From Escherichia phage Baret, in the sequence record OR896834.1: a DNA stretch of 64,000 bases. One strand, 5' to 3'. Each line of letters opens with the position of its first letter. Position 1 is the stretch's first letter. The position numbers and the translations under genes are program-made. The notes below the pieces were generated by a model. The model had not been told where the DNA came from. It did no database searches and saw nothing but the letters and a program-made list of their open reading frames with translations. Shown here piece after piece: positions 4,853 through 60,566 of the stretch.

Positions 4853-5021
4853 TTTTGTTCCTTTCTAAGAACGTATCATACTCAACCGTATCAACATATA
4901 TAACACCATAGTCATCAGATTTATAGTCCATTTCCCACAGCTCACAACGATAGCACCAACTACCGTCCGCCCATACAAATATATCATCAGGGTGTGTATA
5001 CACAGATTTAATTATGGACAT
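4839..5021 (-). CDS. hypothetical protein (60 aa)
   Basis: ORF track; overlaps neighbours by a few nt in operon-like fashion. Confidence 0.35.
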   Translation of the reverse strand: MSIIKSVYTHPDDIFVWADGSWCYRCELWEMDYKSDDYGVIYVDTVEYDTFLERNKNGNK

Positions 5022-5866
5022 ATTTGTTTCCCCGGCACATAAGGTCTACCCTCTAAATGGGCTTCTACACGAGCGATAAAATCAGGGTCATTGAAAGCAT
5101 CTACCGCACCTTTACTCCAGTAAGAGATACCACGTTCTTCCAGCTGGTACATCTCACTACGAGTCATACCTTGATAGCCAGGTTCCGCTGCGAGGGCACT
5201 ATCATAGTAGTTAACAACCATAAGTTTCGCAGCAGTCAAATTAAGAACAGGAAATAATTCCCAGTAGAAGTTAATTACTTGGTTAGAGCAACCAACCACA
5301 ATGATCATATCTTGACTGGTAATACCATCAAAAATATTGTACATTTCTGCATACGCTGGAGCATGCTCCCCAAAGAAGATTACATTAGGTTTAACCCATT
5401 TATAATCATCTGGATCAATAGAAGTGTACCCTACATCAATAATCCGTTTATTGCTACTATTGTAGCTATCAGCTACAACAACCTCTTTTAAATATCCGTG
5501 AATGTGCAGAATGTCACTATGTGGAACGCCAGCACGCTCAATAAGGTCATCAACGTTGGTAGTCAAGTTTACTACCTGACCTGGATATTGTTTATACCAT
5601 TCACCAATACGCAAATGTGCAAGATTGGGTTCAACAGTTTTTAGCTCTTCACGACGTTTGTTGTAAAACATATGGGTTTTATGGTAAAAATTACCACGAA
5701 AGGCATGAATATTACATACTTCTTCTAGATCATAATCATCCCACAGTGCTTTACCACTAGCAGTATCAGTACGAAAAGCTCGTACACCACTTTCAACACT
5801 CAAACCCGCACCGCTAATAATAATTAATCTACGCATTTTCCACCTGTTCTCTGAAGTTTTGCCCAA
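5012..5866 (-). CDS. Sir2-family (sirtuin-like) NAD-dependent protein
   Basis: IISGAGLSVESGVRAFR (sirtuin GAGIS..SGIP.FR motif) and NVDDLIERAG...HIHG; true start may be the internal Met (MRRLII...). Confidence 0.6.
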   Translation of the reverse strand: MGKTSENRWKMRRLIIISGAGLSVESGVRAFRTDTASGKALWDDYDLEEVCNIHAFRGNFYHKTHMFYNKRREELKTVEPNLAHLRIGEWYKQYPGQVVNLTTNVDDLIERAGVPHSDILHIHGYLKEVVVADSYNSSNKRIIDVGYTSIDPDDYKWVKPNVIFFGEHAPAYAEMYNIFDGITSQDMIIVVGCSNQVINFYWELFPVLNLTAAKLMVVNYYDSALAAEPGYQGMTRSEMYQLEERGISYWSKGAVDAFNDPDFIARVEAHLEGRPYVPGKQICP

Positions 5867-6050
5867 TACTGTCTAATAGCTCAGCTAATTCTTTATTGCC
5901 TTTCTCCATTAAGGTATTAGCAATAACTTCTAGCATATTAGCGCAGGATTCAACACCATCCTTATAGCCAGTTTCCCAATACTGCATTAATGCGTTTTCC
6001 AAAGCGGCATTTAAACCCTTATCTGGTAGCATCGGCTTCGAGAATGCCAT
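5829..6050 (-). CDS. hypothetical protein (73 aa)
   Basis: ORF track. Confidence 0.4.
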   Translation of the reverse strand: MAFSKPMLPDKGLNAALENALMQYWETGYKDGVESCANMLEVIANTLMEKGNKELAELLDSIGQNFREQVENA

Positions 6051-6243
6051 AAAGTTTCTCCTCTAGTTCCATAACACGATTTTCATAAGAAGCACGCAAC
6101 TTTTCAATTGCCAGCGCACGCACTGTAACCTCATTAGAATTAATAGCTAACTGGGCTAGGTCTTCTGTTTCCATACGTCCGTTGTAAATTAAGCGATATT
6201 TAAGGTGTTTCACATTCTTAGTCATTATTAAACTCCACTGCAA
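6019..6243 (-). CDS. hypothetical protein (74 aa)
   Basis: ORF track. Confidence 0.4.
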   Translation of the reverse strand: MQWSLIMTKNVKHLKYRLIYNGRMETEDLAQLAINSNEVTVRALAIEKLRASYENRVMELEEKLYGILEADATR

Positions 6244-6598
6244 CTGTTTCTAGGTCTTCATCAGAAAAACTAGAGTATACATCTTTAAGATATTGTTTAA
6301 TACTCCAAGTAATATCTTCGTACCCATGGGGGCTACGTTGGTACACTTTTAGCACTCTATTATACACAAATTCAAGATTACATTTTACTTCATCTCTGTC
6401 TTCATCAAACAAGCAATATGGATTATAAGGTGATACATCTAGATTTGTTCCCACCCAATCGCCAATAATTGATGAATATCCAATACCCTCTAGATGGGAA
6501 TAATCTCCAGTAGATGCAAAAATAGCTTCTCTAAGATCGTCTACGCCAAGATGGAAACTACCACATGTAGACTCAACTATATAGGGCTTTAATTCCAT
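6218..6598 (-). CDS. hypothetical protein (126 aa)
   Basis: ORF track; immediately downstream of nrdD; no radical-SAM CxxxCxxC motif, so not an NrdG activase. Confidence 0.45.
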   Translation of the reverse strand: MELKPYIVESTCGSFHLGVDDLREAIFASTGDYSHLEGIGYSSIIGDWVGTNLDVSPYNPYCLFDEDRDEVKCNLEFVYNRVLKVYQRSPHGYEDITWSIKQYLKDVYSSFSDEDLETVAVEFNND

Positions 6599-47759: not shown

Positions 47760-48370
47760 TGACTTTATATGCACAACAACCTGTTCAAGTAGTACCAGAC
47801 CATGAATTAAATACATGGGATTATGATTTTAAAGACTTAACTGCCACTGTACAGTTCAAATCTATGAAGCTAACCTTTGCGCACACTAATATTAAAGCAT
47901 GTAAAGATTTTGAAGGTAGGCTCAACAACGCTCGTAAGATTTTTGGCAAGGCTCGCATCCCAGCTGATAATCTAATTAATACACTAATCGATGCTGGTTA
48001 TAAACTTGTAAAGACTGAGGTTAACCGTCCTAGTACTCCTGTGACTATTCGAGATCCGTGGCAGTCAGGGCCAATTACAATGTGGAACAGCCCTAAAATA
48101 ACGTCGGATTTGCACAATGTTCCATGCGGTGGCGTTATAGAAAATAATTCCTCATATCGAGTTGGTGAAGATTATGGACCTTCTGCACAATTGAAACATA
48201 CTCAAGAAGCTTTTGAATCTGATATGAAAAGCGTAGCGCCTGTGGATACTGAAGGTTTTAGAAGTCCCATCTATGTTACTCACTTTAATAATCTTAGGCC
48301 TGGGGGTATAAATGATACTATCCTTGAAGCGTTGGGAGCTGCTATTAATGAAGATAAGAGGGGTAATTAA
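47759..48370 (+). CDS. hypothetical protein (203 aa)
   Basis: ORF track. Confidence 0.45.
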   Translation: MTLYAQQPVQVVPDHELNTWDYDFKDLTATVQFKSMKLTFAHTNIKACKDFEGRLNNARKIFGKARIPADNLINTLIDAGYKLVKTEVNRPSTPVTIRDPWQSGPITMWNSPKITSDLHNVPCGGVIENNSSYRVGEDYGPSAQLKHTQEAFESDMKSVAPVDTEGFRSPIYVTHFNNLRPGGINDTILEALGAAINEDKRGN

Positions 48371-49873: not shown

Positions 49874-50360
49874 AATCTCATAGATTAAAAACATCAACTT
49901 GTTTTTACCTCTAGGCCGTAGATTTACATCATTCCTCGTAGGAAAACACTTGATGACGGTTCTGTTCGCAGGTTCTCGTCAATTGTTCTTCCACACCGAG
50001 ACTTAGGAGGATGTATCAAATCGCACGCGCCTAGAGGGACTAACTCTCATGAAATGGGGGTATATTTACTTTTAAATAACTAAAAAATATTTAAAGGCAA
50101 TATCTGTGTTCAAGATGATACACCTGTTGCCGCTCATCTGCTAGGATGGCACAACACTTTCTTCTAGACTCCTAAGTTTCTAGGAATAGTTGAGCACTAA
50201 CTCTAGAGTTTACATTAAACTTTAAATCTGCTTCTCTAGTTAACTCAGGCGGTTTTCATATTCCTAGAAACTCCAGCAATAGGCGGTTAATACAGGGCGG
50301 TTATAGGGAGGGCGGTTATTTCTAAGAGACATTTTTTGAAAACACATTTCCAGAAATTAC

Positions 50361-50961
50361 TGTCGGATTTGCACATTGTGTTTCTAGAAATTTATGGTCG
50401 GATTTGCACAAACGCCTAAGTTTTTAGGAACTCTTACTCTCCTGAAAATACCAGCATTATTTCGGGCCGAAGGCCCGTGATTGCCTGAGTTTTTAGAGCC
50501 ACAGAAATTTTCACTTGTCAAGCTATTTTGCCACCTTTAGCAAATAAAATCTTACTTTATCTCCACTAATCTCAAATTAACCCAAATCTTCTCAACTCTT
50601 CCCCAAAAACGCAGCAAATCAGGTGCTCCGCACCAAACATGCTGCTCCTCCAGTTTCTCCTCTTATTTTCTCTCGCTCTCTCATCTTCTCCTCAAACCTA
50701 TACAATCACACACTCTCCAATCGAAGTCACAAAAATCTTGTCGGTTTCGCACACCTCAACACATGTCGGATCTGCACATATTCTAGCTAATTCCACAGGA
50801 TTCGAACGCAGTTCGTGATTGCTGGAGTTTCTAGAAAAATTCATTGTCGGATTTGCACACTATAAAAATTTTTCGGGTCGGATTTGCACACTACCAAAAA
50901 TTGTCGGATTCGCACATACACGCCCACACGTAACACCCGTGGAGCAATGTCGGATTTGCAC
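50361..50961. repeat. array of 8 direct copies of a 14-mer (GTCGGATTTGCACA and close variants)
   Basis: Copies at ~50361, 50396, 50739, 50764, 50845, 50876, 50902, 50948, all same orientation, irregular spacing. Confidence 0.85.
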
Positions 50962-50990
50962 AAAAGCGCAGGGCAATTGCCCTGCTCGCC

Positions 50991-51168
50991 TGAATGCGAA
51001 TGATAATGAGAATCAATCTTATTTAAAAAGCGGAATGAGAATGATAATGATTCGCATTTAAGAAAGGGAATGAGAGCTATTCAAGAAGTGAAATGATTCT
51101 CATTTAAGAAAGGAAATGATTATCGGTTAGACAGTGGAATGCGAATGATAATGATTCGCATTTAAAAA
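50991..51168. repeat. three palindromic units of type AATGCGAATGATAATGATTCGCATT
   Basis: Units near 50993-51017 (partial), 51031-51060, 51137-51166, plus degenerate copy ~51066-51106. Confidence 0.75.
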
Positions 51169-51194
51169 CGGAAGTGAGAAACACTGTTATTTAA

Positions 51195-51276
51195 GTTATC
51201 CACAGACTTATCAACAGCACGATTTGACTTGACAGAATCCTAGCCATTTTGAGGCGTTATTAACAGACTTATCCAC
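51195..51276. promoter_or_regulatory. DnaA-box cluster (2 x TTATCCACA)
   Basis: TTATCCACA at ~51195-51203 and ~51268-51276. Confidence 0.6.
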
Positions 51277-51284
51277 AGCTTATC

Positions 51285-51304
51285 CTACTGTATAAATATA
51301 CAGT
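51285..51304. promoter_or_regulatory. SOS-box-like palindrome TACTGTATAAATATACAGTA
   Basis: CTGT-N8-ACAG with AT-rich centre, matching the LexA operator pattern. Confidence 0.5.
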
Positions 51305-51561
51305 ATTCCTATGTAGTGAATAATTCTAATATAGGCCTAAAACGTCCTGAATCGCATTCTAACGCGTTTAATTTTGATGGGGATACTAAAACAAGGGCAA
51401 AATTGGAGGAGGCTTAAAAATTAGTTAGCTTGCTAACGATCACACAAGGCGACATGTAACACCTTAATCATTAGCAGGCTAACCATCGCGGGCGCGGTTA
51501 AATGAGAATCACTCTCATTTGAGAATTGGGGGCACTCCCTGGTAGTTACGCCCCGTTATTA

Positions 51562-51786
51562 TTAGTCTGGTAGTCGATGCGTGATCTTTTCCTCCTCCCC
51601 GTAGGAATCCACCAAATGCTGATAATAACCATCGGCATCATAAATAACGCTATCATATTCGCCACGCTCGACCGCTTGCCGATTCTCCGGCGTATCGGGC
51701 ACGTAAAAAACATCAACCATTGTACTGATTTTGGTTACAACAATTTTATTGTTCATAATAACCCCTAGTAAATATATTTTTGCCAA
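51562..51786 (-). CDS. hypothetical acidic protein (64-74 aa)
   Basis: ORF track; last gene of minus-strand pre-early block. Confidence 0.4.
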   Translation of the reverse strand: MAKIYLLGVIMNNKIVVTKISTMVDVFYVPDTPENRQAVERGEYDSVIYDADGYYQHLVDSYGEEEKITHRLPD

Positions 51787-51856
51787 TAGTGGCGAACGTT
51801 ATCGCCACCAGCGGAATCATTTGCAGCCTCAACATTACCAGCGAAAATATATAATC

Positions 51857-52201
51857 TCATTGCGCCACCTTTCGAAACGCTGTTTCAATACTATCCGCAG
51901 TGGATTGAATATACGCGCCTTTCATTATCAGGCGCTCGGTGCATACCTTGCGGAAAATATTAATAAAATCCTCTTCATTTTCTGCAATCAATGCTTCCCC
52001 CATGACCTGAATATCACAAGATGCAAAGGTCAAAAATTGAAATGCTAGTTCACGGGCAACGACCGCATTGATTTTATAATGCGCCTTGCCCTCATAAATA
52101 TTAATAACGCCCTTGTAAGCTGGGGAAAGCTGATTTAAATAGTTTGCTAATAATGCCGGACGGCAATTAGTAACAAAGCGATTACCTTCATAAATTACCA
52201 T
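51857..52201 (-). CDS. hypothetical protein (114 aa)
   Basis: ATG at 52201 four nt after upstream stop; track ORF 51857-52240 trimmed. Confidence 0.45.
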   Translation of the reverse strand: MVIYEGNRFVTNCRPALLANYLNQLSPAYKGVINIYEGKAHYKINAVVARELAFQFLTFASCDIQVMGEALIAENEEDFINIFRKVCTERLIMKGAYIQSTADSIETAFRKVAQ

Positions 52202-52202
52202 T

Positions 52203-52415
52203 TTATAGCACCCCACGAAAAGCCGCGTAAAAGGTGGCAAAGTGTTTAACTGTTTCAGCGATCACGTTGCCGCGCTTGTCGAATTTTTTCTCGGTAACAC
52301 GAAAGGCATTTTTGTTACGTGCTACATATTCGATTTTACAATCCTCCCGCTCGAACGTGTTAACATCCACCAGCTTAAAGCCTTTCGAACGTGCAAGAGA
52401 AACGTTGCGGATCAT
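52203..52415 (-). CDS. hypothetical basic protein (70 aa)
   Basis: ORF track; SD AAAGGAG upstream. Confidence 0.45.
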   Translation of the reverse strand: MIRNVSLARSKGFKLVDVNTFEREDCKIEYVARNKNAFRVTEKKFDKRGNVIAETVKHFATFYAAFRGVL

Positions 52416-52417
52416 TT

Positions 52418-52573
52418 TTATTCTCCTTTACCAGTCATGCAGCCCAGCAGATAAGAAAATACAGCGATACCCGCGCCGATAATAACAGCGTGAACGCCGA
52501 AAGCTATTGCAAAAAGTGATAAAATAGCGCCCAAGATACCTGCTAGAATAGCTCGAAAAATAACCATTTTCAT
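52418..52573 (-). CDS. small hydrophobic membrane protein (~50 aa)
   Basis: Hand-found minus-strand ORF (MKMVIFRAILAGILGAILSLFAIAFGVHAVIIGAGIAVF...); below ORF-track cut-off; SD AGGAG. Confidence 0.4.
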   Translation of the reverse strand: MKMVIFRAILAGILGAILSLFAIAFGVHAVIIGAGIAVFSYLLGCMTGKGE

Positions 52574-52613
52574 ACTCCTAGTTAATGGGGCGAAAGTAAC
52601 GCCCCATTATTAA

Positions 52614-52877
52614 TTACATTAAAACAATTTTTGCAGCTTGTTTTTTGGTGCAATGTTCCGCCTTCAGGGTATCCAGCAAAAAGCCAGCCGTTTGCTGATC
52701 GATTTTATCGGCGTTATATAGTTCCTGAATGGTATTATAGGTTTTAGCAATACCGAACTCCTGCACCATTTCATAGATGACAGCACGATTAGACACCCAG
52801 CCTTGAGCGGTGAACAGATGACTAGCAGAAGAATAAGCAACCATTTTAAGCCTCCAAATTTTTGGGAAAATTTTCAA
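52614..52877 (-). CDS. hypothetical protein (76-87 aa)
   Basis: ORF track. Confidence 0.4.
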   Translation of the reverse strand: MKIFPKIWRLKMVAYSSASHLFTAQGWVSNRAVIYEMVQEFGIAKTYNTIQELYNADKIDQQTAGFLLDTLKAEHCTKKQAAKIVLM

Positions 52878-52950
52878 CCGTCCTTAAACGGTGTAAAGGC
52901 ATTATAACAAAAAAGGCCACCAATTATGGCGACCTTTACAAAACTTTACA

Positions 52951-53445
52951 TTAAACTACTTGTAATGTTTCAATATTGAAACATCGTTTCAATTCGTCAT
53001 GCAAAACAGCGTATTCCTCCCATCGGGTACTATCAGGAATATAAACAAGCTGTTTTAATCGGTTTGCATATATTACCGCTTTGTTATCAATTATCTCGAC
53101 GCCGCCATATTTAATAATTAATTTCATGACGGAATTAATAGGATCACCGCCGTTTACATATGTGCCGGATTTACTTAACTGATAATGATAAAGGCTTGCA
53201 TATACGTTTTCATTTTCATACCATTCGCCAGTATCCTCGTCTTCATAGCCATCGCTACCAAAACGAGAAGCATTATCAATAGCCATTTCATGAGCGAAAG
53301 CGTCCAGATCCGTACCAGCAGGAACAAAGTATTCCTCGGTATTCCCCTCGCCGCAATAGCCAGTATGGCAATCGACTAAAATGATCATATCATGTTTAGC
53401 CGTGCTCACTTCCCCTAGCGAGAAGCCGTATTTTTCCTCAGCCAT
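52951..53445 (-). CDS. hypothetical acidic protein (164 aa)
   Basis: ORF track; no recognisable motif. Confidence 0.5.
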   Translation of the reverse strand: MAEEKYGFSLGEVSTAKHDMIILVDCHTGYCGEGNTEEYFVPAGTDLDAFAHEMAIDNASRFGSDGYEDEDTGEWYENENVYASLYHYQLSKSGTYVNGGDPINSVMKLIIKYGGVEIIDNKAVIYANRLKQLVYIPDSTRWEEYAVLHDELKRCFNIETLQVV

Positions 53446-53510
53446 TAGTTAGCCTCCTATTAATTAACAAGGGAATAGTAAAGCGGGGTAACAATCCCCG
53501 CTTAATATTA

Positions 53511-54503
53511 TTACTCGCTTTCGGTGTTAGTGGTAAAAGTAGAAATATCGATACCTTTTACCATTTCATCAATCATTTCAGCGATGTTAAAACTTTGCAC
53601 CATTTCCAGCATTGCCGCTTCCATAGCTGCGCCTGCTACCGCTTTCGCTTTCTGGTTATTCGGGGCGTACTGGTCAACCGCTACGCTCAGCAGGTTAGCA
53701 ATAACTACCCGACCAATCGGCGTATCAATATAACCTTTGATCATGAATGGTGCTTTTTTAGCCGCTACTTTCGTAATTTGAGTTAATGCAATTTTGCCAG
53801 CTTCCAGTTTTGCAGCATTTACAACAGCGGATTTATTAGCGGCAACGATATTAGCGATCTTGGTCATGGTATTATTTCCTTTGTTTTCAGTAGTTTGAGT
53901 GTTAACGCTTTGAGTGTTAGAATTTACAGCATGTTTTTCCGTGTTGTCAATAGGCTGATCTTCCTCCTTCCAGAAAGAAAAGCCCGCGCTTTCAATATCC
54001 CCATCATATACATAAGGGTACACTTCCGACGGTAACAAAAAATTACCGTTATCATCAAAGGCCATTACAGCCGCGAAACGATACCCGTCACAATCCGACC
54101 GATTCCAGCCAACTGATAAATAACGCCAAAATGAATCAAGAAAATTTTCAATATCATAAAGATCATTGGGGTTGGCTTCATAATTTTCTATTGAAAAAAC
54201 TTCTAAGCCTGCCCCAGTATCATAGGCTTTTACTGTGCTACCTTTTACGATTATGAAATCAGTATCCGGCCCTCGACTAGTGAGCAATTGATAATCTTGA
54301 TTATATAAAACAAGCGTTGCCCCTTGTTTATATAACGGTAGAAAACTATTCATATCATAGGCATCGAAATCACCAAAAAAGTTTTGGTGAATAGTTTCAG
54401 CCTTGTTAATAAAATGTTTAATGCTGGTTGTTCTGCTACCGTCCAGCAGGTTACGCAGCGCACCTTTTAAGACGGTTGCGTTATCTGGTTTATATAGCCT
54501 CAT
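53511..54503 (-). CDS. hypothetical protein (330 aa) with Asn/Thr-rich linker and Ala-rich helical C-terminus
   Basis: ORF track; SD GAGGGAGG before ATG 54503; first gene of minus-strand pre-early block. Confidence 0.55.
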   Translation of the reverse strand: MRLYKPDNATVLKGALRNLLDGSRTTSIKHFINKAETIHQNFFGDFDAYDMNSFLPLYKQGATLVLYNQDYQLLTSRGPDTDFIIVKGSTVKAYDTGAGLEVFSIENYEANPNDLYDIENFLDSFWRYLSVGWNRSDCDGYRFAAVMAFDDNGNFLLPSEVYPYVYDGDIESAGFSFWKEEDQPIDNTEKHAVNSNTQSVNTQTTENKGNNTMTKIANIVAANKSAVVNAAKLEAGKIALTQITKVAAKKAPFMIKGYIDTPIGRVVIANLLSVAVDQYAPNNQKAKAVAGAAMEAAMLEMVQSFNIAEMIDEMVKGIDISTFTTNTESE

Positions 54504-54769
54504 TTGTTGGCCTCCCTCGTTAATCGGTGAGTGAATGATAAAGGCAATTTTCTAGCATAGGCAAATATTATTTTACCTTTTTATTTTCCTTGCCTAGCGC
54601 CTAGTTTTATGCTAACCGCGCAGCGGTACAGTAAAGAGCAAAACACGGTGAAGCCACCAGGGCGACGGGTGAAGGCTTTACTTTAATATTACCCCACCGC
54701 ATTTAGCTCGTTAGAAAGCGTTTTAGGCCGCTTAAAATTGATTGCAGTTGTTAACACTACCCATTTACC

Positions 54770-54785
54770 CTGTATATTTATACAG
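54770..54785. promoter_or_regulatory. SOS-box-like palindrome CTGTATATTTATACAG
   Basis: CTGT-N8-ACAG; inverted counterpart of the element at 51285-51304. Confidence 0.5.
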
Positions 54786-54795
54786 TAGGATAACA

Positions 54796-54879
54796 TGTGG
54801 ATAAGTCTGTGGATAAGTCCTTATATCGCCGCCTATCGTGTCAAATCATTTTGTGCTGTTAATAACATTGTGGATAACT
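54796..54879. promoter_or_regulatory. DnaA-box cluster (3 x TGTGGATAA)
   Basis: TGTGGATAA at ~54796-54804, ~54808-54816 and TTGTGGATAAC ~54868-54878. Confidence 0.6.
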
Positions 54880-54911
54880 TAAATGATAGTGGTTCTCACT
54901 TAGGACGATAG

Positions 54912-54963
54912 TTTCTTATAGTTATTATTTCTATCGGTTACGATTTCTTATAATTATTATTTC
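54912..54963. repeat. two direct ~20-bp repeats (TTTCTTATAGTTATTATTTCT / TTTCTTATAATTATTATTTCT)
   Basis: Copies at ~54912-54931 and ~54944-54963 in the divergent control region. Confidence 0.6.
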
Positions 54964-55160
54964 TCATTAATTTATAAGTATATTATATATCATGAAATAG
55001 TTAGTTGGCTAATGAGATTTTCCGTGATTAATAGTCTGCTAATAGTTCCGGCTGTTACAATCCACCAGCATGATTATCATCCTAGCAACTATTAGTCTGC
55101 TATCTTTCCGATGCATACTAACAAATAAAAGTCAATTAATTTATTTCATAAAATAAGTAG

Positions 55161-55236
55161 TTATCCACTGGAAAATAAAAGTCAAGTGGATAACTAGGAA
55201 AATTTCATTTTTGCTTTTGGGGATAAGTTATCAACA
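55161..55236. promoter_or_regulatory. DnaA-box-like cluster
   Basis: TTATCCACT ~55161, GTGGATAAC ~55187, GGATAAGTTATCAACA ~55221. Confidence 0.5.
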
Positions 55237-55649
55237 AGGCTAGAATGCACCTAAAACGCCCTAGAACGCGATGAAAGTTTTAGCCATGCCATTGCATTGC
55301 CTACCCTCGTTTATCGCTACCACGAGCTTTTTAGTTTTTGTCAAGTAGGGCAAGGCAAATATAAATGAAAAAATTACTTGCCAACCTGCTGGGTTTTATG
55401 GTATTCGCGCGCCCGTTTCCTTTAATTTTAGTGCGCCGCGCCCAGGTCGCCGCACGGTGTCCGGTGGCATTTTGTCTTTACGTTTCTTTACAAAAATAAG
55501 GTTGCGCCATTTTTACTATTTGCTATTATTTATCTCGTAGGGCGGCAATGACGAACTACACGGCGGGAAGTTTACCGCCGCGCTCTTTAAAAATTGGGTA
55601 CATCTTAAAGTCTATCGGCGGTAAACTTATATTATAAGGAATCGCAGAT

Positions 55650-55853
55650 ATGAAACAAACTTTATTGATCACTGGTAAACCAGCTAAAAAATTAGATGGT
55701 ACTACTAAAAAATTGTTGACAATAGCCCAGCAATCCGTAAAATACCGATTTGCTCAGTACAAGAAAGGCCGCCAGCAGGGTTTAGAAATGATCTGGCGTA
55801 ATATTATGATCGACCTGAAAGAAAATCATAAAAAACTGCAAAAAACAGTTTGA
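55650..55853 (+). CDS. pre-early hypothetical protein (67 aa)
   Basis: ORF track; SD AGGAATCG. Confidence 0.45.
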   Translation: MKQTLLITGKPAKKLDGTTKKLLTIAQQSVKYRFAQYKKGRQQGLEMIWRNIMIDLKENHKKLQKTV

Positions 55854-56083
55854 CACCCTAGCCGATAGGCTTTAAGATGTACCCAGTTCGATGAGAGCGA
55901 TAACTTGATACAATTTGACGGTTAGGTGATTCCCCATAAATCATCCTGCCCCCTAACTGGGATATAGCAGCCTGCGTGGAGTTCCTTAAATTGATTATAG
56001 CGGTGAGCGGATTGTTGCTTATTACCTGCTACTTTCTAGCAGGTAATGCGGAACAATCCCCTAAATAACTTGGAGTTTATACT

Positions 56084-56335
56084 ATGCAAAACGTTATTAC
56101 CGCGCCTAAAATTGGTCAATCCGTTTTTATTCCTTTCGTTACTAAAACGGATGAACTAACCGGAAAAGCCGAACGTATTAAAGGTGCGGCGCTTATGCCG
56201 TTTGATACAATCGACGCGGTATACGCTGAAAATGAACGTAGTAACAACGGCAAAACCGTTTTTAGCGTTCGCGTTAAATCCGGCGACGTTGTAAAGGTTG
56301 TACAGCGTAACGAAAAATGGGAAGCTGTAGCGTAA
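56084..56335 (+). CDS. pre-early hypothetical protein (83 aa)
   Basis: ORF track; SD GGAG. Confidence 0.45.
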   Translation: MQNVITAPKIGQSVFIPFVTKTDELTGKAERIKGAALMPFDTIDAVYAENERSNNGKTVFSVRVKSGDVVKVVQRNEKWEAVA

Positions 56336-56431
56336 TAGTGTTACTTTTATATCCCCCAGTAGTTCGGGGGATATAACGATTAACATTATGTTAATCTTAT
56401 CCCTTAAATTAAACTAATAGGAGTTTTTACC

Positions 56432-56839
56432 ATGACTAACGTTAAAACCGCAAAATTTGCTTGGAATGAAGAAAACACTCAAAAAGCTGTTTCTATGTAC
56501 CAGCAGTTAATTAATGAAAACGGTTTAGATTTCGCAAATAGCGACGGTTTAAAAGAGATTGCAAAAGCAGTGGGCGCGTCTTCTCCCGTGTCTGTTCGCT
56601 CAAAATTGACCAGCGCAAAAGCGTATCAGAAAAGCGATAAGCCTCGCAAAGTTGGCGGCGGTAGCTCAATCCGCAAAGCTCACTATGTACGCGTTATCGC
56701 TAAACATGCTATTGATTCCGGCATTATTAAAGACGCCGACGATCTGGCAAGTCTGGAAAGTGCAAAACTTGAAACGCTGGACGCCGTAGCGCAACTGTTA
56801 GGCGTTGCCGATGAAGTAAAACAGGCCGCAGGTGAATAA
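56432..56839 (+). CDS. pre-early hypothetical protein (135 aa)
   Basis: ORF track; SD AGGAG. Confidence 0.5.
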   Translation: MTNVKTAKFAWNEENTQKAVSMYQQLINENGLDFANSDGLKEIAKAVGASSPVSVRSKLTSAKAYQKSDKPRKVGGGSSIRKAHYVRVIAKHAIDSGIIKDADDLASLESAKLETLDAVAQLLGVADEVKQAAGE

Positions 56840-56895
56840 ATTTAATTAGTGGGGAATATTCCCCACTATAATTTCCCTTTGACTGGAGTTTTAAA

Positions 56896-57093
56896 ATGAT
56901 CTTTTACCCCACTGAATCGTTAATTCTAGGCTTATTTATTATGGCGGCCTCGTTATTATTCGCTTATTTTCAAAATGATTTAGACTCATATTATTTTAAA
57001 CGTAAGTCTAAATTGGCAAAGCGTTTAGGTCTGATTTGTTTTATTGCCGCCATTGCTTGTGGTGTTAGTTCTAGCCTTATGCCTTTAAATTAA
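56896..57093 (+). CDS. pre-early small membrane protein (65 aa)
   Basis: ORF track; two hydrophobic helices. Confidence 0.4.
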   Translation: MIFYPTESLILGLFIMAASLLFAYFQNDLDSYYFKRKSKLAKRLGLICFIAAIACGVSSSLMPLN

Positions 57094-57190
57094 TGTTGCA
57101 AATTATAACGCCTATTATTCAAGGCGTTATATTTGGCAATATTTGCCAATAACAAACGTTTTTTAATCCCTTTAATGGAGTTTTATTAAT

Positions 57191-58855
57191 ATGATTATTT
57201 CCGCAGAAAAACAAACCGTTATCCTGAAAATGGCCGCTGACTTTAATTTCTATGGTAAACGTCTGCGCGCTACTAAACTGGAGGTCTGCGACGATATATC
57301 AAAAGCGGTCTACGATACAACAAAACACTCGACCGCTATCTGCGACTGGTTGGAAGCAAATAAACCAGCTAAACCGAAAGCGGCGAAAGTAGCAAAAGCC
57401 ATTAAAAACGATGAGCGTCCAGAAGCGGCGGGGATTGTTTCTAGCACGGTTGAGCAATGGGAAGTAAAGCAGGGTAAACGCTTTATTATTACGTCGATTC
57501 AGAATAATACTTTCCCGCATAAAAACTTTTTAGCCTCATTGGAGCAATTTGCTAAATATATCGGCGCTGATTTGCTGGTTAGCAAGTTTATTTATAACAA
57601 AAACGGTTTTCAAAATGGCGAGGGTGCAGAAGGAATAAAATATGATTCCGCATTTGACAAATATATCTGCAATAAAAACGTGTTTTTAAATAACCGCCGT
57701 TTTGCTTTCATGGCTGAAATTAACGTTTTGCCAACCGCAGATTATCCGCTTTCTGGATTCGCTGAAACTGCAACGGCGCTTAATCTGGAAGGTCTGGCAA
57801 TTGGTCACGCTAAAATTACCGCTGAAAGCGTGCCAGCTTTAAAAGGTGAAGTAGTGCGCCGTATGTACTCAACCGGAACGGCAACGCTCAAAAACTACAT
57901 TCAGCAGAAAGCAGGACAAAAGGCCGAGGCGCTGCATAACTTCGGTGCGCTAATTGTCGAGTTCGACGAGGACGGGGAATTTTTTGTACGCCAGCTCGAA
58001 ACGATGGACGAAAGCGGGGTATTTTATGATCTGAATGTGTGCGCTACTCCTGCCGGATGCTATGAGACATCGGGGCATGTTTTAGGCTTGCAATACGGCG
58101 ATATTCACGCAGAAAAATTAGATGATGATTGTGCCGTTGCGTCATGGGCTGGCGAAAATAGCTTGCTTGATATTCTTAAACCAAAATATCAATTCGTACA
58201 CGACGTGCATGATTTTACATCACGCAACCATCACAACCGCGCATCCGGTGTATTCCTAGCAAAACAATACGCCGCCGGACGTGATAAGGTATTAGATGAT
58301 CTTATCGATACGGGGCGCGTGCTGGAATCAATGGAACGTGATTTCTCGCAAACAATCATTGTTGAATCTAATCACGATTTGGCGCTATCCCGTTGGCTTG
58401 ATGATCGTAATGCTAACATTAAAGACGATCCAGCAAACGCGGAACTATATCACCGCCTAAATGCCGCGATTTATGGAGCTATTGCAGAAAAAGACGATAC
58501 TTTCAACGTGCTAGATTATGCGCTGCGCAAGGTTGCAGGTTGTGAGTTTAACGCCATTTTTCTAACTACTGACCAATCTTTCAAGATTGCAGGCATTGAA
58601 TGCGGCGTACACGGTCACAACGGCATTAACGGCAGCCGTGGCAATCCTAAACAATTTAAGAAATTGGGCAAATTAAACACCGGACACACTCACACCGCCA
58701 GCATTTATGGCGGCGTGTATACCGCTGGCGTAGCTGGTAGTCTGGACATGGGTTACAACGTTGGCGCGTCAAGCTGGACACAAACGCATTTAATTACCTA
58801 TGCAAACGGTCAGCGCACTTTGATTGACTTTAAAAACGGTAAATTCTTTGCGTAA
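57191..58855 (+). CDS. A1: A1-like pre-early protein (metallophosphatase-fold nuclease)
   Basis: 554 aa; GDIHAE, GHNG, GHTH calcineurin-like motifs; size and position relative to dmp as for T5 A1. Confidence 0.7.
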   Translation: MIISAEKQTVILKMAADFNFYGKRLRATKLEVCDDISKAVYDTTKHSTAICDWLEANKPAKPKAAKVAKAIKNDERPEAAGIVSSTVEQWEVKQGKRFIITSIQNNTFPHKNFLASLEQFAKYIGADLLVSKFIYNKNGFQNGEGAEGIKYDSAFDKYICNKNVFLNNRRFAFMAEINVLPTADYPLSGFAETATALNLEGLAIGHAKITAESVPALKGEVVRRMYSTGTATLKNYIQQKAGQKAEALHNFGALIVEFDEDGEFFVRQLETMDESGVFYDLNVCATPAGCYETSGHVLGLQYGDIHAEKLDDDCAVASWAGENSLLDILKPKYQFVHDVHDFTSRNHHNRASGVFLAKQYAAGRDKVLDDLIDTGRVLESMERDFSQTIIVESNHDLALSRWLDDRNANIKDDPANAELYHRLNAAIYGAIAEKDDTFNVLDYALRKVAGCEFNAIFLTTDQSFKIAGIECGVHGHNGINGSRGNPKQFKKLGKLNTGHTHTASIYGGVYTAGVAGSLDMGYNVGASSWTQTHLITYANGQRTLIDFKNGKFFA

Positions 58856-58911
58856 ATAATTAATCCCCTAGCGGCTTGAAATATAGCCGCTATTACAGGA
58901 GCTAAATTAGA

Positions 58912-59169
58912 ATGAAAGTTACATTACCCAAAACGCTAGACGAAAAAGCATTTATTTCACCGGATGAAATGGAATCCGATAAAGTTTACAGCTTCGGGCC
59001 TATTCTAGCCGCCAAAACTAATACTGATGGGATTATTACGGTCGATTATCGTGATAATGATATTGTACCCTTTGACGATGATGGTGCTTTTTATGAGTGG
59101 CTAAGCGATAATAATTTACCCGTAAACGGTGAATTAACGCCGTACCAGATGCAGATTATTATCAAATAA
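58912..59169 (+). CDS. pre-early hypothetical protein (85 aa)
   Basis: ORF track. Confidence 0.45.
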   Translation: MKVTLPKTLDEKAFISPDEMESDKVYSFGPILAAKTNTDGIITVDYRDNDIVPFDDDGAFYEWLSDNNLPVNGELTPYQMQIIIK

Positions 59170-59207
59170 ATTAAATCCATTATTAAACTAATTGGAGTTT
59201 TATAAAC

Positions 59208-59600
59208 ATGAAAAAGCAAAATATTCCATTTGACCGCGCTCAATCCTCAATTGTTCTGGTTTATTCTAATGGTGAGCGTTACCACGTCGAGGCGGGGCAC
59301 GTTATTGATGAATTGCTAGATTTCAATGACGCTTTGCAGGTTACAACATTTGCATATATGCAAGGCAAACTAACTAGCCATATTAAAGCAAAAGGCGTTT
59401 ATGTTGACACGGTGAAACAAGAAACGATTATCATCGACGCAGTAAAATCCGGTCTAGCCTTTGCAGTTGTCGCGCCTTGCCCCGCTTGCCTTGATGATCA
59501 ATTGATTTCTGCAAAAGTATATACTTGTGCGGGGATTCGTTCCCATGTATCAGGTGAGGATGTTAGTTTTATCGCCGATGCGTTGGCTTATGGTCTTTAA
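59208..59600 (+). CDS. A2-like pre-early protein (130 aa)
   Basis: About 14 kDa and located between A1 and dmp; assignment by position and size only. Confidence 0.4.
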   Translation: MKKQNIPFDRAQSSIVLVYSNGERYHVEAGHVIDELLDFNDALQVTTFAYMQGKLTSHIKAKGVYVDTVKQETIIIDAVKSGLAFAVVAPCPACLDDQLISAKVYTCAGIRSHVSGEDVSFIADALAYGL

Positions 59601-59679
59601 TAGTTAATTTATTATTACCCGCTTATAAATAGCGGGTAATGCTGAATTAATCTAATCCCTTAAATGGAGAACGTAACAA

Positions 59680-60414
59680 ATGAATAAAGCTATCATGAAT
59701 CTTTCCCGCAGCTTCCCGCATATTTCCCGCGTCATGATTTGGGATTTAGACGGCACTATCATTAATTCTTTCCATCGTGTAGCACCCTGCTTTGATAGCG
59801 AGGGCAATTTAGATTTAAATAAGTATAAAAATGAAGCGTGTAAACACCATTTAATAATGCAAGATACTTTATTGCCATTGGTTGAATATATGCGCCAGTG
59901 CATGAATGACGCAAATACTTTAAACATTATTTGCACCGCTCGACTGATGAGTAAGTCGGACTATTATTTCTTGCGTAAACAAGGGTTGCGCGGTCGTGGT
60001 AATAGTAATATCCGCGTATTTTCCCGCGATACACTACACAAATATTTTAAAGCTGATAAGGTTAGCGAAATATACCACAGCAAAGACGCAGTATATAAAT
60101 CTTATTATTTTGAATTATTTAAACAGTTATATCCTAACGCTGATTTTACAATGATTGATGATCATAAAGGCGTGCTATCAGCGGCAGCGTCATACGGATT
60201 TAAAACGCTGGACGCACAAGCCGTTAATGATATTCTATCAATCGGCGTGGCATTGATAGGTGAAACCTTTATTGATGAATCTCTCGACGATGATAATGAT
60301 TATCAATTCCTAGCTGACCGTTTAAAATTATGCTGGGAAGGTATGACCGAGGAAGAACGCGCAGAATATAGTTGCAGTCCTCAACAATATATTGAGAAAT
60401 TAAAAGTTGCCTAA
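59680..60414 (+). CDS. dmp: 5'-deoxyribonucleotidase (HAD family)
   Basis: 244 aa; N-terminal MIWDLDGTI HAD motif I. Confidence 0.8.
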   Translation: MNKAIMNLSRSFPHISRVMIWDLDGTIINSFHRVAPCFDSEGNLDLNKYKNEACKHHLIMQDTLLPLVEYMRQCMNDANTLNIICTARLMSKSDYYFLRKQGLRGRGNSNIRVFSRDTLHKYFKADKVSEIYHSKDAVYKSYYFELFKQLYPNADFTMIDDHKGVLSAAASYGFKTLDAQAVNDILSIGVALIGETFIDESLDDDNDYQFLADRLKLCWEGMTEEERAEYSCSPQQYIEKLKVA

Positions 60415-60566
60415 CAATTAAAGTTGAAATAGTCACGGTGTGTAATGATACCATGCCGTGACTATTAGCCTGCTAAGTACCGGGCGGTAATGAGACTCAT
60501 TCTCATCTGGGGGGCCACTGGACACACCCACGCGTACGTAATCCAAAGAAATTGGCAAAAGTCAAA

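What the first reader, a model, noticed from the sequence alone, without database searches (positions are those of the whole stretch)
54504..55649. 1.1-kb divergent control region packed with DnaA boxes and short direct repeats
Between the minus-strand block and the plus-strand pre-early genes are at least six DnaA-box-like 9-mers (54796-54879, 55161-55236), two 20-bp direct repeats (54912-54963), two TAGTCTGCTA repeats (~55031, ~55091) and AT-rich stretches. This resembles an origin-like or host-factor-loading region rather than a simple promoter, and a possible 44-aa ORF (~55365-55499) sits inside it.
Basis: seen in the sequence. Interest (0 to 1): 0.5.

Follow-up and report, generated by a model that had tools for sequence, protein, structure and literature searches.

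The report
T5-type pre-early DnaA/LexA-box control region
This is the known, conserved non-coding centre of a T5-like phage's terminal repeat; it carries phased binding sites for the host DnaA protein and, apparently unreported, a near-perfect host LexA (SOS) site, and it is unlikely to be a replication origin.

Summary
The region holds 7 DnaA-box-like 9-mers within 441 bp (0.13 expected), plus the direct repeats, the AT-rich stretch and the 44-aa ORF.

The window is a T5-like phage (Demerecviridae). The region lies in the middle of the ~10-kb terminal repeat, between the T5.011 homologue and hdi. It corresponds to Davison's published "Repeat Regions 1+2". Boxes 54796-54877 are the IRC-spacer-IRD element, an inverted twin of the element beside the injection-stop signal (window 51172-51390). 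The finding as written is therefore already known, and its function is untested.

New here:
- Each twin starts with a near-consensus LexA/SOS box: 19/20 at 51286 and 17/20 at 54768.
- Box variation across 31 genomes follows the DnaA consensus TTWTNCACA.
- DnaA boxes with an adjacent SOS box recur in the pre-early regions of Proteus, Vibrio and Aeromonas relatives and in unrelated viral contigs. In bacterial genomes the pattern occurs at about chance level.
- Boxes 55161-55236 are lineage-specific.
- The AT-rich repeat varies in copy number.
- The ORF is not conserved as a gene.

An oriC-type origin is poorly supported: no GATC and no IHF site. The most likely role is a host-factor (DnaA and LexA) assembly site acting with its twin.

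The parts
54504..55649 (.). Whole divergent non-coding region in the centre of the terminal repeat. It equals T5 Repeat Regions 1+2 without the hegG insertion.
   Evidence: 99-99.7% identical to T5-like phages. It aligns to T5 4919-6494, reverse complement. The terminal repeat spans about window 50496-60540 by alignment to the annotated SIA3lw repeat.
53511..54503 (-). T5.011 homologue (330 aa), the first gene of the minus-strand pre-early operon.
   Evidence: phrog_4263.
54535..54564 (-). P11-type pre-early promoter, TTGCCT-18-TATCAT.
   Evidence: Promoter scan. Homologous to the annotated T5 promoter 6411-6489. P11 was validated by primer extension in T5 (PMC7472727).
54682..54901 (+). Inverted-repeat arm: the SOS box plus IRC-spacer-IRD.
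   Evidence: 72% identical over 223 nt to the reverse complement of 51172-51390. Both copies are present in 31 of 31 genomes.
54768..54787 (.). LexA/SOS-box-like palindrome CCCTGTATATTTATACAGTA, 17/20 to TACTG(TA)5CAGTA.
   Evidence: The CTGT-N8-ACAG core is kept in 25 of 30 orthologues.
54785..54793 (-). Weak half box TTATCCTAC, in 11-12-nt phase with boxes a and b and overlapping the SOS-box flank.
54796..54804 (-). DnaA box a, TTATCCACA.
   Evidence: 27 of 30 orthologues fit TTWTNCACA.
54808..54816 (-). DnaA box b, TTATCCACA. It is TTTTACACA or TTTTGCACA in relatives.
   Evidence: 28 of 30 fit the consensus.
54857..54865 (-). DnaA-like box c, TTATTAACA (2 mismatches).
54869..54877 (-). DnaA box d, TTATCCACA.
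   Evidence: 26 of 30 fit.
54912..54975 (+). AT-rich tandem repeat: two ~32-nt units containing the 21-nt direct repeats. Copy number is 1-4 in relatives.
55029..55102 (+). The two TAATAGTCTGCTA repeats and the segment between them. In T5 and other relatives, about 55046-55128 is replaced by an HNH endonuclease cassette (hegG).
55161..55236 (.). Second, lineage-specific cluster of four one-mismatch DnaA-like boxes. There is a convergent pair at 55161(+)/55185(-) and a back-to-back pair at 55218(-)/55228(+).
   Evidence: (I7). Invariant in 10 of 11 close relatives and degenerate in T5 and L022.
55297..55410 (+). Diverged direct copy of the P11 leader and upstream segment (54507-54621).
   Evidence: D5, D6 and D13 share a constant ~790-nt offset.
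55365..55499 (+). 44-aa ORF, doubtful as a gene.
   Evidence: It matches phrog_17446. The ATG is AGG in T5 and CTG in L003 and L012, and 5 of 11 relatives carry an 11-nt indel.
55568..55628 (+). Perfect 13-nt inverted repeat with a 35-nt loop, just upstream of the hdi ribosome-binding site. It overlaps a T5.009-like 29-aa ORF (55548-55637).
   Evidence: (I10).
55650..55853 (+). hdi (T5.008) homologue. It contains a P_H22-type promoter at 55716-55743 and is followed by a probable P_D/E20-type promoter at 55850-55878.
   Evidence: Literature: 10.64898/2026.04.02.716235.
51172..51390 (-). Inverted twin in Repeat Region 3, beside the injection-stop signal. SOS box at 51286-51305 (19/20). Boxes at 51196, 51208, 51257 and 51269.

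Best explanation
Shown. The window is a T5-like phage (Demerecviridae). The region is the conserved non-coding centre of its ~10-kb terminal repeat, which is the DNA injected first (first-step-transfer, FST). It corresponds to the published 'Repeat Regions 1+2'.

Layout:
- The left edge holds the P11 pre-early promoter. The right edge holds the leader of hdi.
- Between them lies a ~130-bp composite module: one near-consensus LexA/SOS box followed by DnaA boxes in two phased pairs (IRC-spacer-IRD).
- This module is an inverted twin of the module beside the injection-stop signal, 3.5 kb away. Together the twins bracket the minus-strand pre-early operon.
- The rest is accessory: a variable-number AT-rich repeat, an HNH-homing hot spot, and a second DnaA-box cluster found only in some lineages.

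Inferred.
- Host DnaA, and probably LexA, load onto both modules as soon as the FST DNA enters. No phage protein exists at that moment.
- The two nucleoprotein complexes then anchor or shape the FST DNA. They help set or hold the pause between first- and second-step transfer, possibly also acting as barriers around the inward-facing operon.
- It is very unlikely to be a replication origin.

My estimates: identity of the region ~0.95; DnaA/LexA occupancy ~0.7; a role in transfer or anchoring ~0.35.
For: Identity: and Davison's description.

Non-randomness.

Conservation:
- Both inverted copies are present in 31 of 31 genomes with fixed 12/61/73-nt box spacing, while the distance between the copies varies. 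That distance is roughly 1.6-4 kb by my subtraction of those coordinates.
- The two copies do not homogenise. Paralogue identity within a phage is 0.746 and between phages 0.742. Orthologue identity is 0.82 for the Repeat Region 2 copy and 0.90 for the Repeat Region 3 copy. Each copy therefore looks separately constrained.

Host-factor signature:
- In 244 box instances, variation is confined to position 3 (A or T only), position 5 (any base) and position 6 (C or A). Positions 1, 2, 4, 8 and 9 are 96-100% fixed. Positions 3 and 5 are the degenerate positions of TTWTNCACA.
- The SOS boxes match the consensus 19/20 and 17/20. About 3e-5 sites with at most 1 mismatch are expected in 64 kb.
- The same association, DnaA boxes with a CTGT-N8-ACAG palindrome within about 30 nt, occurs in the pre-early regions of Proteus phage 1, Vibrio phages Ceto and D308, and Aeromonas phage AhSzq-1. 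Their A1 proteins are only 31-42% identical to the window's.
- All 5 exact boxes of the 114-kb D308 genome lie in its pre-early region, as do 6 of the 10 in AhSzq-1.
- The composite pattern occurs in 82 viral stretches, including 23 loci with no A1/A2 homologue in the fetched DNA. It occurs only 15 times in 596 Gbp of bacterial genomes.

Link to transfer:
- The twin lies in the region annotated as the injection-stop signal in T5.
- The pause needs pre-early gene products only to end, not to begin.
- Davison cites a minor FST band of ~5.85 kb near the T5 copy of this element.
Against: - No binding or genetic experiment exists. The BF23 paper says functional studies are lacking.
- Box c and the twin's boxes b' and c' are mostly non-consensus (TTATTAACA or TTATCAACA).
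- The module is 230 nt or more from P11 and about 0.8 kb from hdi, so no direct promoter link is evident.
- A complex on DNA that is already inside the cell does not obviously stop DNA that is still outside.
- A T5-like phage in the database lists DH5alpha as its host. That strain is recA1 by my own knowledge, so LexA cleavage cannot be required.
- The same composite occurs in viral contigs with no A1/A2 in the fetched locus, where two-step transfer is unknown. This points to a more general role.
- The older subscription papers (Heusterspreute 1987, Wang 2005, Davison 2015) could not be read.
Confidence: 0.5

Rival explanations
1. Transcriptional operator region. LexA and DnaA act as classical regulators or roadblocks of pre-early promoters, tying pre-early expression to the host's SOS and replication state. 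There is no role in DNA transfer.
For: - A promoter-like TTAACA-16-TATATT (54751-54778, 10 of 12) has its -10 inside the SOS box and would read through the DnaA boxes. TTAACA is invariant in 11 close relatives.
- The module lies in a divergent promoter region here and in unrelated viral contigs.
- By my own knowledge, SOS boxes are normally operators and DnaA is a known transcription factor.
Against: - The -35 is absent in T5.
- The twin at 51286 has no comparable promoter.
- The experimentally known promoters lie 230 nt or more away (P11) or downstream inside and after hdi (P_H22, P_D/E20).
- No ORF follows the putative promoter for about 580 nt.
Confidence: 0.2
2. DnaA-dependent replication origin. 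DnaA boxes plus the adjacent AT-rich repeat act as an unwinding element, giving an origin in each terminal repeat.
For: A cluster of DnaA boxes lies next to the most AT-rich 100 nt of the area (GC 0.19), which holds direct repeats.
Against: - There is no GATC (3.7 expected) and no IHF consensus.
- The AT-rich repeat has 1-4 copies in close relatives and is mostly missing in T5.
- T5 origins are reported near the genome centre, and replication genes are not expressed during FST (Davison).
- Relatives encode their own protein annotated as origin-binding.
- The twin at the injection-stop signal has no comparable AT-rich repeat.
Confidence: 0.05
3. The motifs are sites for a phage protein, for example the A2 DNA-binding dimer or the A1-A2 complex, that only resemble host DnaA and LexA sites. 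[quoted passage not shown]
For: A1 and A2 are required for second-step transfer. A2 binds DNA and A1 dampens pre-early promoters. A palindrome would suit a dimer.
Against: - The motifs stay at the host consensus in phages whose A1 is 31-42% identical, and in viral loci with no A1/A2 homologue.
- Box variation follows the degeneracy of the DnaA consensus.
- The pause begins before any phage protein is made.
Confidence: 0.08
4. Decoy or titration sites. Replicated phage DNA, with up to 24 boxes and 4 SOS boxes per genome, soaks up DnaA and LexA. This blocks host initiation and derepresses SOS functions such as SulA, complementing Hdi.
For: High-affinity consensus sites are present in both terminal repeats. 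Next door the phage encodes a division inhibitor (PMC10714956).
Against: - Host DNA is largely degraded within minutes, so host regulation matters little.
- Titration needs neither the strict phasing and spacing nor the inverted-twin arrangement conserved in 31 of 31 genomes.
Confidence: 0.07

Closest known systems
T5 'Repeat Regions 1 and 2' with the IRC-spacer-IRD element and its partner IRD'-spacer-IRC' at the injection-stop signal (Davison 2020, bioRxiv 10.1101/866236; DnaA boxes at the injection-stop signal first noted in 1987 according to that preprint)
   Same: Same position between the T5.011 and hdi homologues. Same inverted twin near the inner end of the terminal repeat. Same two pairs of DnaA or DnaA-like boxes 3 nt apart. 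Same constant spacing.
   Different: This phage has no hegG insertion, so Regions 1 and 2 are contiguous. It has all four boxes in this copy, whereas T5 has lost one. It also has four extra boxes at 55161-55236 that are not counted in the published scheme. The SOS-box identity of the flanking palindrome is not mentioned in the preprint.
E. coli oriC and the non-origin DnaA-box clusters datA and DARS (own knowledge)
   Same: Clusters of consensus and weaker DnaA boxes in fixed phase, with an AT-rich neighbour.
   Different: No GATC cluster and no IHF consensus. The box period is 12 nt rather than 11 nt. The AT-rich part is not conserved. An SOS box abuts the array. A role in DnaA titration or nucleotide exchange was not tested.
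SOS operators used by mobile elements (colicin genes, CTXphi, GIL01, phage 186 tum) and the E. coli uvrB control region, which is said to combine a LexA box and a DnaA box (own knowledge)
   Same: A CTGT-N8-ACAG palindrome of operator quality, and co-occurrence with a DnaA box as at uvrB.
   Different: Here the phage is strictly virulent. The sites are not clearly tied to a promoter. They occur as an inverted pair 3.5 kb apart, and one copy lies at the point where DNA entry pauses.
T7 genome entry, where transcription pulls the DNA into the cell (own knowledge)
   Same: Stepwise genome entry. An operon (P11) points toward the DNA that has not yet entered.
   Different: No evidence that T5 entry is driven by transcription. 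T5 needs A1 and A2 for the second step.

Membership tests
T5-type FST central repeat region (Repeat Regions 1+2, IRC-spacer-IRD) | Lies inside the terminal repeat between the T5.011 and T5.008 (hdi) homologues, upstream of A2-A1-dmp | tested here: met
T5-type FST central repeat region (Repeat Regions 1+2, IRC-spacer-IRD) | Inverted copy of the element near the inner end of the terminal repeat (injection-stop region) | tested here: met
   54682-54901 against 51390-51172: 72% over 223 nt, E 2e-33
T5-type FST central repeat region (Repeat Regions 1+2, IRC-spacer-IRD) | Two pairs of DnaA or DnaA-like boxes 3 nt apart with a constant spacer | tested here: met
   Boxes at 54796/54808 and 54857/54869. 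The 12/61/73-nt spacing recurs in all loci
DnaA binding site | Match to TT(A/T)TNCACA | tested here: met
   Three exact TTATCCACA in this copy. 146 of 244 orthologous instances fit the consensus, and variation is limited to positions 3, 5 and 6
DnaA binding site | Bound by DnaA in vitro or in vivo | not testable with these tools
   Needs footprinting or ChIP. The literature says it is untested
LexA operator (SOS box) | Palindrome CTGT-N8-ACAG close to TACTG(TA)5CAGTA | tested here: met
   17/20 at 54768 and 19/20 at 51286. These are the only AT-rich sites of this form in 64 kb
LexA operator (SOS box) | Overlaps a promoter that it represses | tested here: inconclusive
   A -10-like TATATT lies inside the box with TTAACA at 16 nt. 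The -35 is absent in T5, and the twin has no such promoter
LexA operator (SOS box) | Bound by LexA | not testable with these tools
   Needs EMSA or ChIP
oriC-type replication origin | DnaA-box cluster next to a conserved AT-rich unwinding element | tested here: inconclusive
   An AT-rich repeat is present (GC 0.19), but it varies from 1 to 4 units and is largely absent in T5
oriC-type replication origin | GATC clustering and IHF/Fis sites (enterobacterial oriC) | tested here: not met
   0 GATC against 3.7 expected, and no IHF consensus. Fis was not scanned
oriC-type replication origin | Replication initiates there | not testable with these tools
   The literature places T5 origins near the genome centre
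Small protein gene (phrog_17446) | Start codon and reading frame conserved among relatives | tested here: not met
   ATG is AGG in T5 and CTG in L003 and L012. There is an 11-nt indel in 5 of 11 relatives. ORF length is 44, 58 or 95 aa, or the ORF is absent

The most novel reading that the evidence does not exclude
The element is one copy of a composite host-factor module, phased DnaA boxes abutting a consensus SOS box, that has not been recognised as such. The module appears in all seven lineages of Demerecviridae sampled here. Similar modules occur at early-region junctions of unrelated viral contigs. In bacterial genomes the pattern occurs at roughly chance level. On this reading, phages use DnaA and LexA together as ready-made structural proteins on freshly injected DNA. 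In T5-like phages the inverted pair would be the long-sought cis element that sets or holds the pause of two-step DNA transfer.
Probability: 0.3. Interest if true: 0.8.

Novelty: already known. Interest (0 to 1): 0.5.

Why it matters
How T5 stops DNA entry at 8% of the genome and later restarts it has been open since the 1960s. The cis signal has never been defined by mutation.

Both inverted elements combine consensus sites for two abundant host proteins. Those sites persist across distant Demerecviridae whose surrounding DNA looked unalignable. This turns a vague "repeat-rich region" into specific, cheap experiments: footprints, ChIP in FST-arrested cells, box mutants, and dnaA or lexA host mutants.

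It also tells phage engineers which parts of this 1.1 kb look dispensable: the HNH hot spot, the AT-rich repeat, the second box cluster and the 44-aa ORF. The part that does not look dispensable is 54682-54901.

If the composite module is general, it would be a new way in which virulent phages use the host SOS repressor.

Tried and rejected
- Rfam scan of 50000-56500 found only chance-level matches, so no known RNA family is present.
- Concerted evolution or gene conversion between the two inverted copies is not seen. Identity within a phage (0.746) equals identity across phages (0.742).
- The 44-aa ORF as a gene is rejected. Start codon and frame are not conserved, although annotators have called it and it matches phrog_17446.
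- oriC hallmarks are absent: no GATC and no IHF consensus.
- Promoter scans explain only the edges of the region (P11, and P_H22/P_D/E20 beyond it). No convincing hdi promoter was found.
- The strict pattern of two exact boxes plus an SOS box gave 0 hits in bacterial genomes. The looser pattern gave 15, against my rough chance estimate of about 8.
- Davison 2015 could not be fetched by DOI or PMC id. Two literature searches found no top-ranked paper linking LexA with T5-like phages. Older subscription papers were not searchable, so "unreported" is provisional.
- I did not compute a LexA heterology index, because I had no reliable matrix. Mismatch counts to the textbook consensus were used instead.
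Full report
**Observation**

The region was read directly. Exact TTATCCACA lies on the minus strand at 54796, 54808 and 54869. One-mismatch boxes lie at 55161(+), 55185(-), 55218(-) and 55228(+). A two-mismatch box, TTATTAACA, lies at 54857.

- Against the shuffle background of 19.4 boxes per 64 kb, 7 boxes in 441 bp are expected 0.13 times (P ~1e-10).
- Three exact boxes in 84 bp are expected 0.001 times.
- The 21-nt direct repeats (54912 and 54944) and the TAATAGTCTGCTA pair (55029 and 55090) are confirmed.
- The AT-rich stretch (GC 0.19) and the 44-aa ORF are confirmed.

**What the locus is**

The 1146 bp are 99-99.7% identical to T5-like phages such as S.Ent 1-35-3, SUT_E1620 and vB_Eco_mar004NP2, and 93% identical to BF23. 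In BF23 the match lies inside the annotated left terminal repeat.

- Alignment to the annotated repeat of phage SIA3lw places the terminal repeat at about window 50496-60540. The finding is therefore at its centre.
- The flanking genes are the T5.011 homologue (330 aa, minus strand) and the hdi/T5.008 homologue (67 aa, plus strand). A2, A1 and dmp follow.
- Against T5 (AY543070) the region corresponds to 4919-6494 in reverse orientation, without the hegG HNH gene.
- This is what Davison calls Repeat Regions 1 and 2. They are contiguous in phages that lack the HNH insert. Region 2 holds IRC-spacer-IRD with DnaA boxes, the inverted partner of IRD'-spacer-IRC' at the injection-stop signal.
- In the window the partner is 51172-51390, 72% identical over 223 nt in inverted orientation. 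Its boxes lie at 51196, 51208, 51257 and 51269.

The core of the finding is therefore a published observation. A 2023 paper on BF23 states that functional tests of these sites are lacking.

**Known promoters**

- P11 was validated in T5 by primer extension. It maps to 54535-54564 on the minus strand, at the left edge of the region.
- The strong plus-strand promoters lie beyond the right edge. A TTGACA-16-TAAAAT inside hdi (55716-55743) corresponds to P_H22. A TTGACA-17-TAAGAT at 55850-55878 is probably P_D/E20.
- About 900 bp between the edges has no assigned function.

**Conservation**

Using A2 as a probe I fetched 40 loci from IMG/VR.

- In every genome a minus-oriented box group lies 1.5-2.2 kb upstream of A2. 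A plus-oriented group with the same 12/61/73-nt spacing lies further upstream.
- Both copies of the 132-nt element were found in 31 of 31 distinct genomes. By my subtraction of those coordinates, the copies lie roughly 1.6-4 kb apart.
- The copies do not homogenise. Identity is 0.746 within a phage and 0.742 across phages. Orthologue identity is 0.82 for the Region 2 copy and 0.90 for the Region 3 copy.
- The non-coding region is 78-94% identical among 10 relatives without the HNH insert. The first 150 nt of hdi are 76-97% identical in the same phages.

**Is DnaA the likely ligand?**

- Over 244 orthologous box instances, positions 1, 2, 4, 8 and 9 are 96-100% fixed and position 7 is 93% fixed. 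Position 3 varies only between A and T. Position 5 takes any base. Position 6 is C or A.
- Box b alternates between TTATCCACA, TTTTACACA and TTTTGCACA, all of which fit TT(A/T)TNCACA.
- This is the degeneracy of the DnaA consensus, plus a recurrent C6-to-A variant of unknown affinity.

The palindrome that begins each inverted copy is a LexA/SOS box.

- The sites are 54768-54787 CCCTGTATATTTATACAGTA (17/20 to TACTG(TA)5CAGTA) and 51286-51305 TACTGTATAAATATACAGTA (19/20).
- They are the only AT-rich CTGT-N8-ACAG sites in the window. Sites with at most 1 mismatch are expected 3e-5 times in 64 kb.
- T5 has the same pair, at 6211 and 9409.
- The CTGT-N8-ACAG core is intact in 25 of 30 Region 2 copies and 29 of 31 Region 3 copies.
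- A weak half box (TTATCC|TAC) bridges the DnaA array and the SOS box in 11-12-nt phase.
- Davison's preprint never mentions LexA or SOS. Two literature searches returned no top-ranked paper linking LexA with T5-like phages. Older subscription papers could not be read.

**Distant relatives**

With the A1 protein as probe I fetched four phages whose A1 is 31-42% identical: Proteus phage 1, Aeromonas phage AhSzq-1, and Vibrio phages D308 and Ceto.

- Their intergenic DNA showed no evident similarity to the window apart from these motifs; I did not attempt a formal alignment.
- Each nonetheless has exact DnaA boxes in the non-coding gaps of the pre-early region, with a CTGT-N8-ACAG palindrome within about 30 nt of a box.
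- An example from Ceto is TTATCCACAaccTTATCCACCgcaaaacTACTGTATATTTATACAGTG.
- In the complete D308 genome, all 5 exact boxes lie within 103260-106499. In AhSzq-1, 6 of 10 lie within 106666-108677. About 1.2 are expected per genome.

A pattern scan for TTATCCACA-N0-30-CTGTAT-N4-ATACAG gave the following.

- It found 82 stretches in IMG/VR, many on contigs of T5-like genome size.
- Of 31 loci that I checked, mostly on shorter metagenomic contigs, 7 carried distant A1/A2/dmp homologues, one was a close T5-like contig, and 23 carried no A1/A2 homologue in the fetched DNA.
- In the three loci whose ORFs I listed, the module lies in a gap between oppositely oriented ORFs. Pfam hits nearby include a terminase large subunit, GP88 and a CobT-type VWA domain.
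- Several loci show paired exact DnaA boxes flanking the SOS box.
- In 596 Gbp of bacterial and archaeal genomes the same pattern occurs only 15 times, and the stricter two-box version never. My rough chance estimate for the looser pattern is about 8.

The composite is therefore a viral feature. It persists where A1/A2 are very divergent or absent from the fetched DNA. This argues for host proteins with universal specificity rather than a phage protein.

**Accessory parts of the region**

- The second box cluster (55161-55236) is invariant in 10 of 11 close relatives. It is degenerate in T5 and L022 and present in about 40% of the genomes.
- The "20-bp direct repeats" belong to an AT-rich tandem array with 1-4 units in different phages.
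- About 55046-55128, including the second TAGTCTGCTA, is replaced by an HNH endonuclease cassette in T5 and many others.
- The 44-aa ORF matches phrog_17446. Its ATG is AGG in T5 and CTG in two close relatives, and an 11-nt indel shifts the frame in 5 of 11. I do not regard it as an established gene.

**Origin reading**

There is no GATC (3.7 expected) and no IHF consensus. The AT-rich neighbour is not conserved. T5 origins are reported near the genome centre, and replication genes are not expressed during FST. Relatives encode a protein annotated as origin-binding. I give the origin reading about 5%.

**Mechanism (inferred)**

The pause in DNA entry starts before any phage protein exists, so it must rest on cis DNA plus host or virion factors.

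- Two modules of consensus sites for abundant host proteins bracket the operon that points toward the DNA not yet injected. One module lies in the region annotated as the injection-stop signal in T5.
- Davison cites an old report of a minor FST band near the other module.
- I therefore favour, at about 35%, a model in which DnaA and LexA assemble on both modules and anchor or shape the FST DNA, helping to set or hold the pause. This extends Davison's DnaA-only proposal.
- The main rival, at about 20%, is ordinary operator function. A promoter-like TTAACA-16-TATATT has its -10 inside the SOS box. However, that -35 is missing in T5 and the twin has no such promoter.
- Phage-protein sites, decoys and an origin are less likely.
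- None of this is tested. A T5-like phage in the database lists DH5alpha as its host. That strain is recA1 by my own knowledge, so LexA cleavage cannot be essential.

**Verdict**

The SOS-box component, its family-wide recurrence and its presence in unrelated viral contigs appear to be new and are directly testable.

Noticed in passing
window 50362-50963 (also 48103): Eight copies of GTCGGATTTGCACA (Davison's DRD repeats) straddle the inner boundary of the terminal repeat (~50496). Six of the eight contain ATTTGCACA, one mismatch from the DnaA consensus TTWTNCACA. A ninth copy lies at 48103.
   Followed up: partly
L116 6464-6526; L052 12141-12374; L086 5200-5344; L125 6705-6741; L083 10574-10609: Viral metagenome loci with no A1/A2 homologue in the fetched DNA carry paired exact DnaA boxes (11-12-nt period) flanking one to three SOS boxes. 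In the three loci whose ORFs I listed (L125, L116, L083), the module lies in a gap between oppositely oriented ORFs. Pfam hits nearby include a terminase large subunit and GP88 (L116) and a CobT-type VWA domain (L125).
   Followed up: partly
window 55581-55619 and 55861-55899: A 39-nt inverted repeat (82% complementary) brackets the hdi ORF. The right arm overlaps the TTGACA-17-TAAGAT promoter (probably P_D/E20).
   Followed up: no
window 55568-55580 and 55616-55628: A perfect 13-nt inverted repeat with a 35-nt loop lies immediately upstream of the hdi ribosome-binding site, inside a T5.009-like 29-aa ORF (55548-55637). The ORF is almost invariant at the nucleotide level among relatives, which looks more like a cis element than a coding sequence.
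   Followed up: no
window 54507-54621 and 55297-55410: A diverged direct duplication of ~115 nt copies the P11 leader and upstream segment, including a copy of the ribosome-binding-site-like CGATWAACGAGGG. In most relatives part of the second copy is replaced by ...AAGGGGATAAGCC..., another DnaA-like half site.
   Followed up: partly
window 55046-55128: Hot spot for HNH endonuclease insertion: hegG in T5, and related cassettes at this or a nearby site in 10 of 22 distinct sequences of this intergenic region.
   Followed up: partly
window 50968-50985 (minus strand): A strong terminator-like hairpin, GCAGGGCAATTGCCCTGC followed by a T run, lies between the injection-stop module and the DRD repeats. 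Leftward pre-early transcripts may therefore run through the module before stopping.
   Followed up: no
window 50496 and ~60540: The window comes from an assembly with a single, collapsed copy of the terminal repeat. To the right the repeat runs straight into DNA matching the receptor-blocking and receptor-binding protein genes of SIA3lw. To the left, judging by T5's layout, lie early-region genes; I did not check them.
   Followed up: partly
L144 382-416 and 2741-2787: A 3-kb contig filed under a 'Clostridia bacterium' MAG carries two composite modules in inverted orientation 2.3 kb apart. It looks like a T5-like phage fragment binned into a bacterial genome.
   Followed up: no
L051 5617-5868 and 10199-10497; row H32: Pre-early ORFs of relatives carry implausible product names. 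The T5.007 homologue in SIA3lw and the A1 gene in LmqsSP1 are both called 'baseplate wedge protein'. Small ORFs just outside the SIA3lw repeat are called 'tail assembly protein' and 'tail fiber protein'.
   Followed up: no
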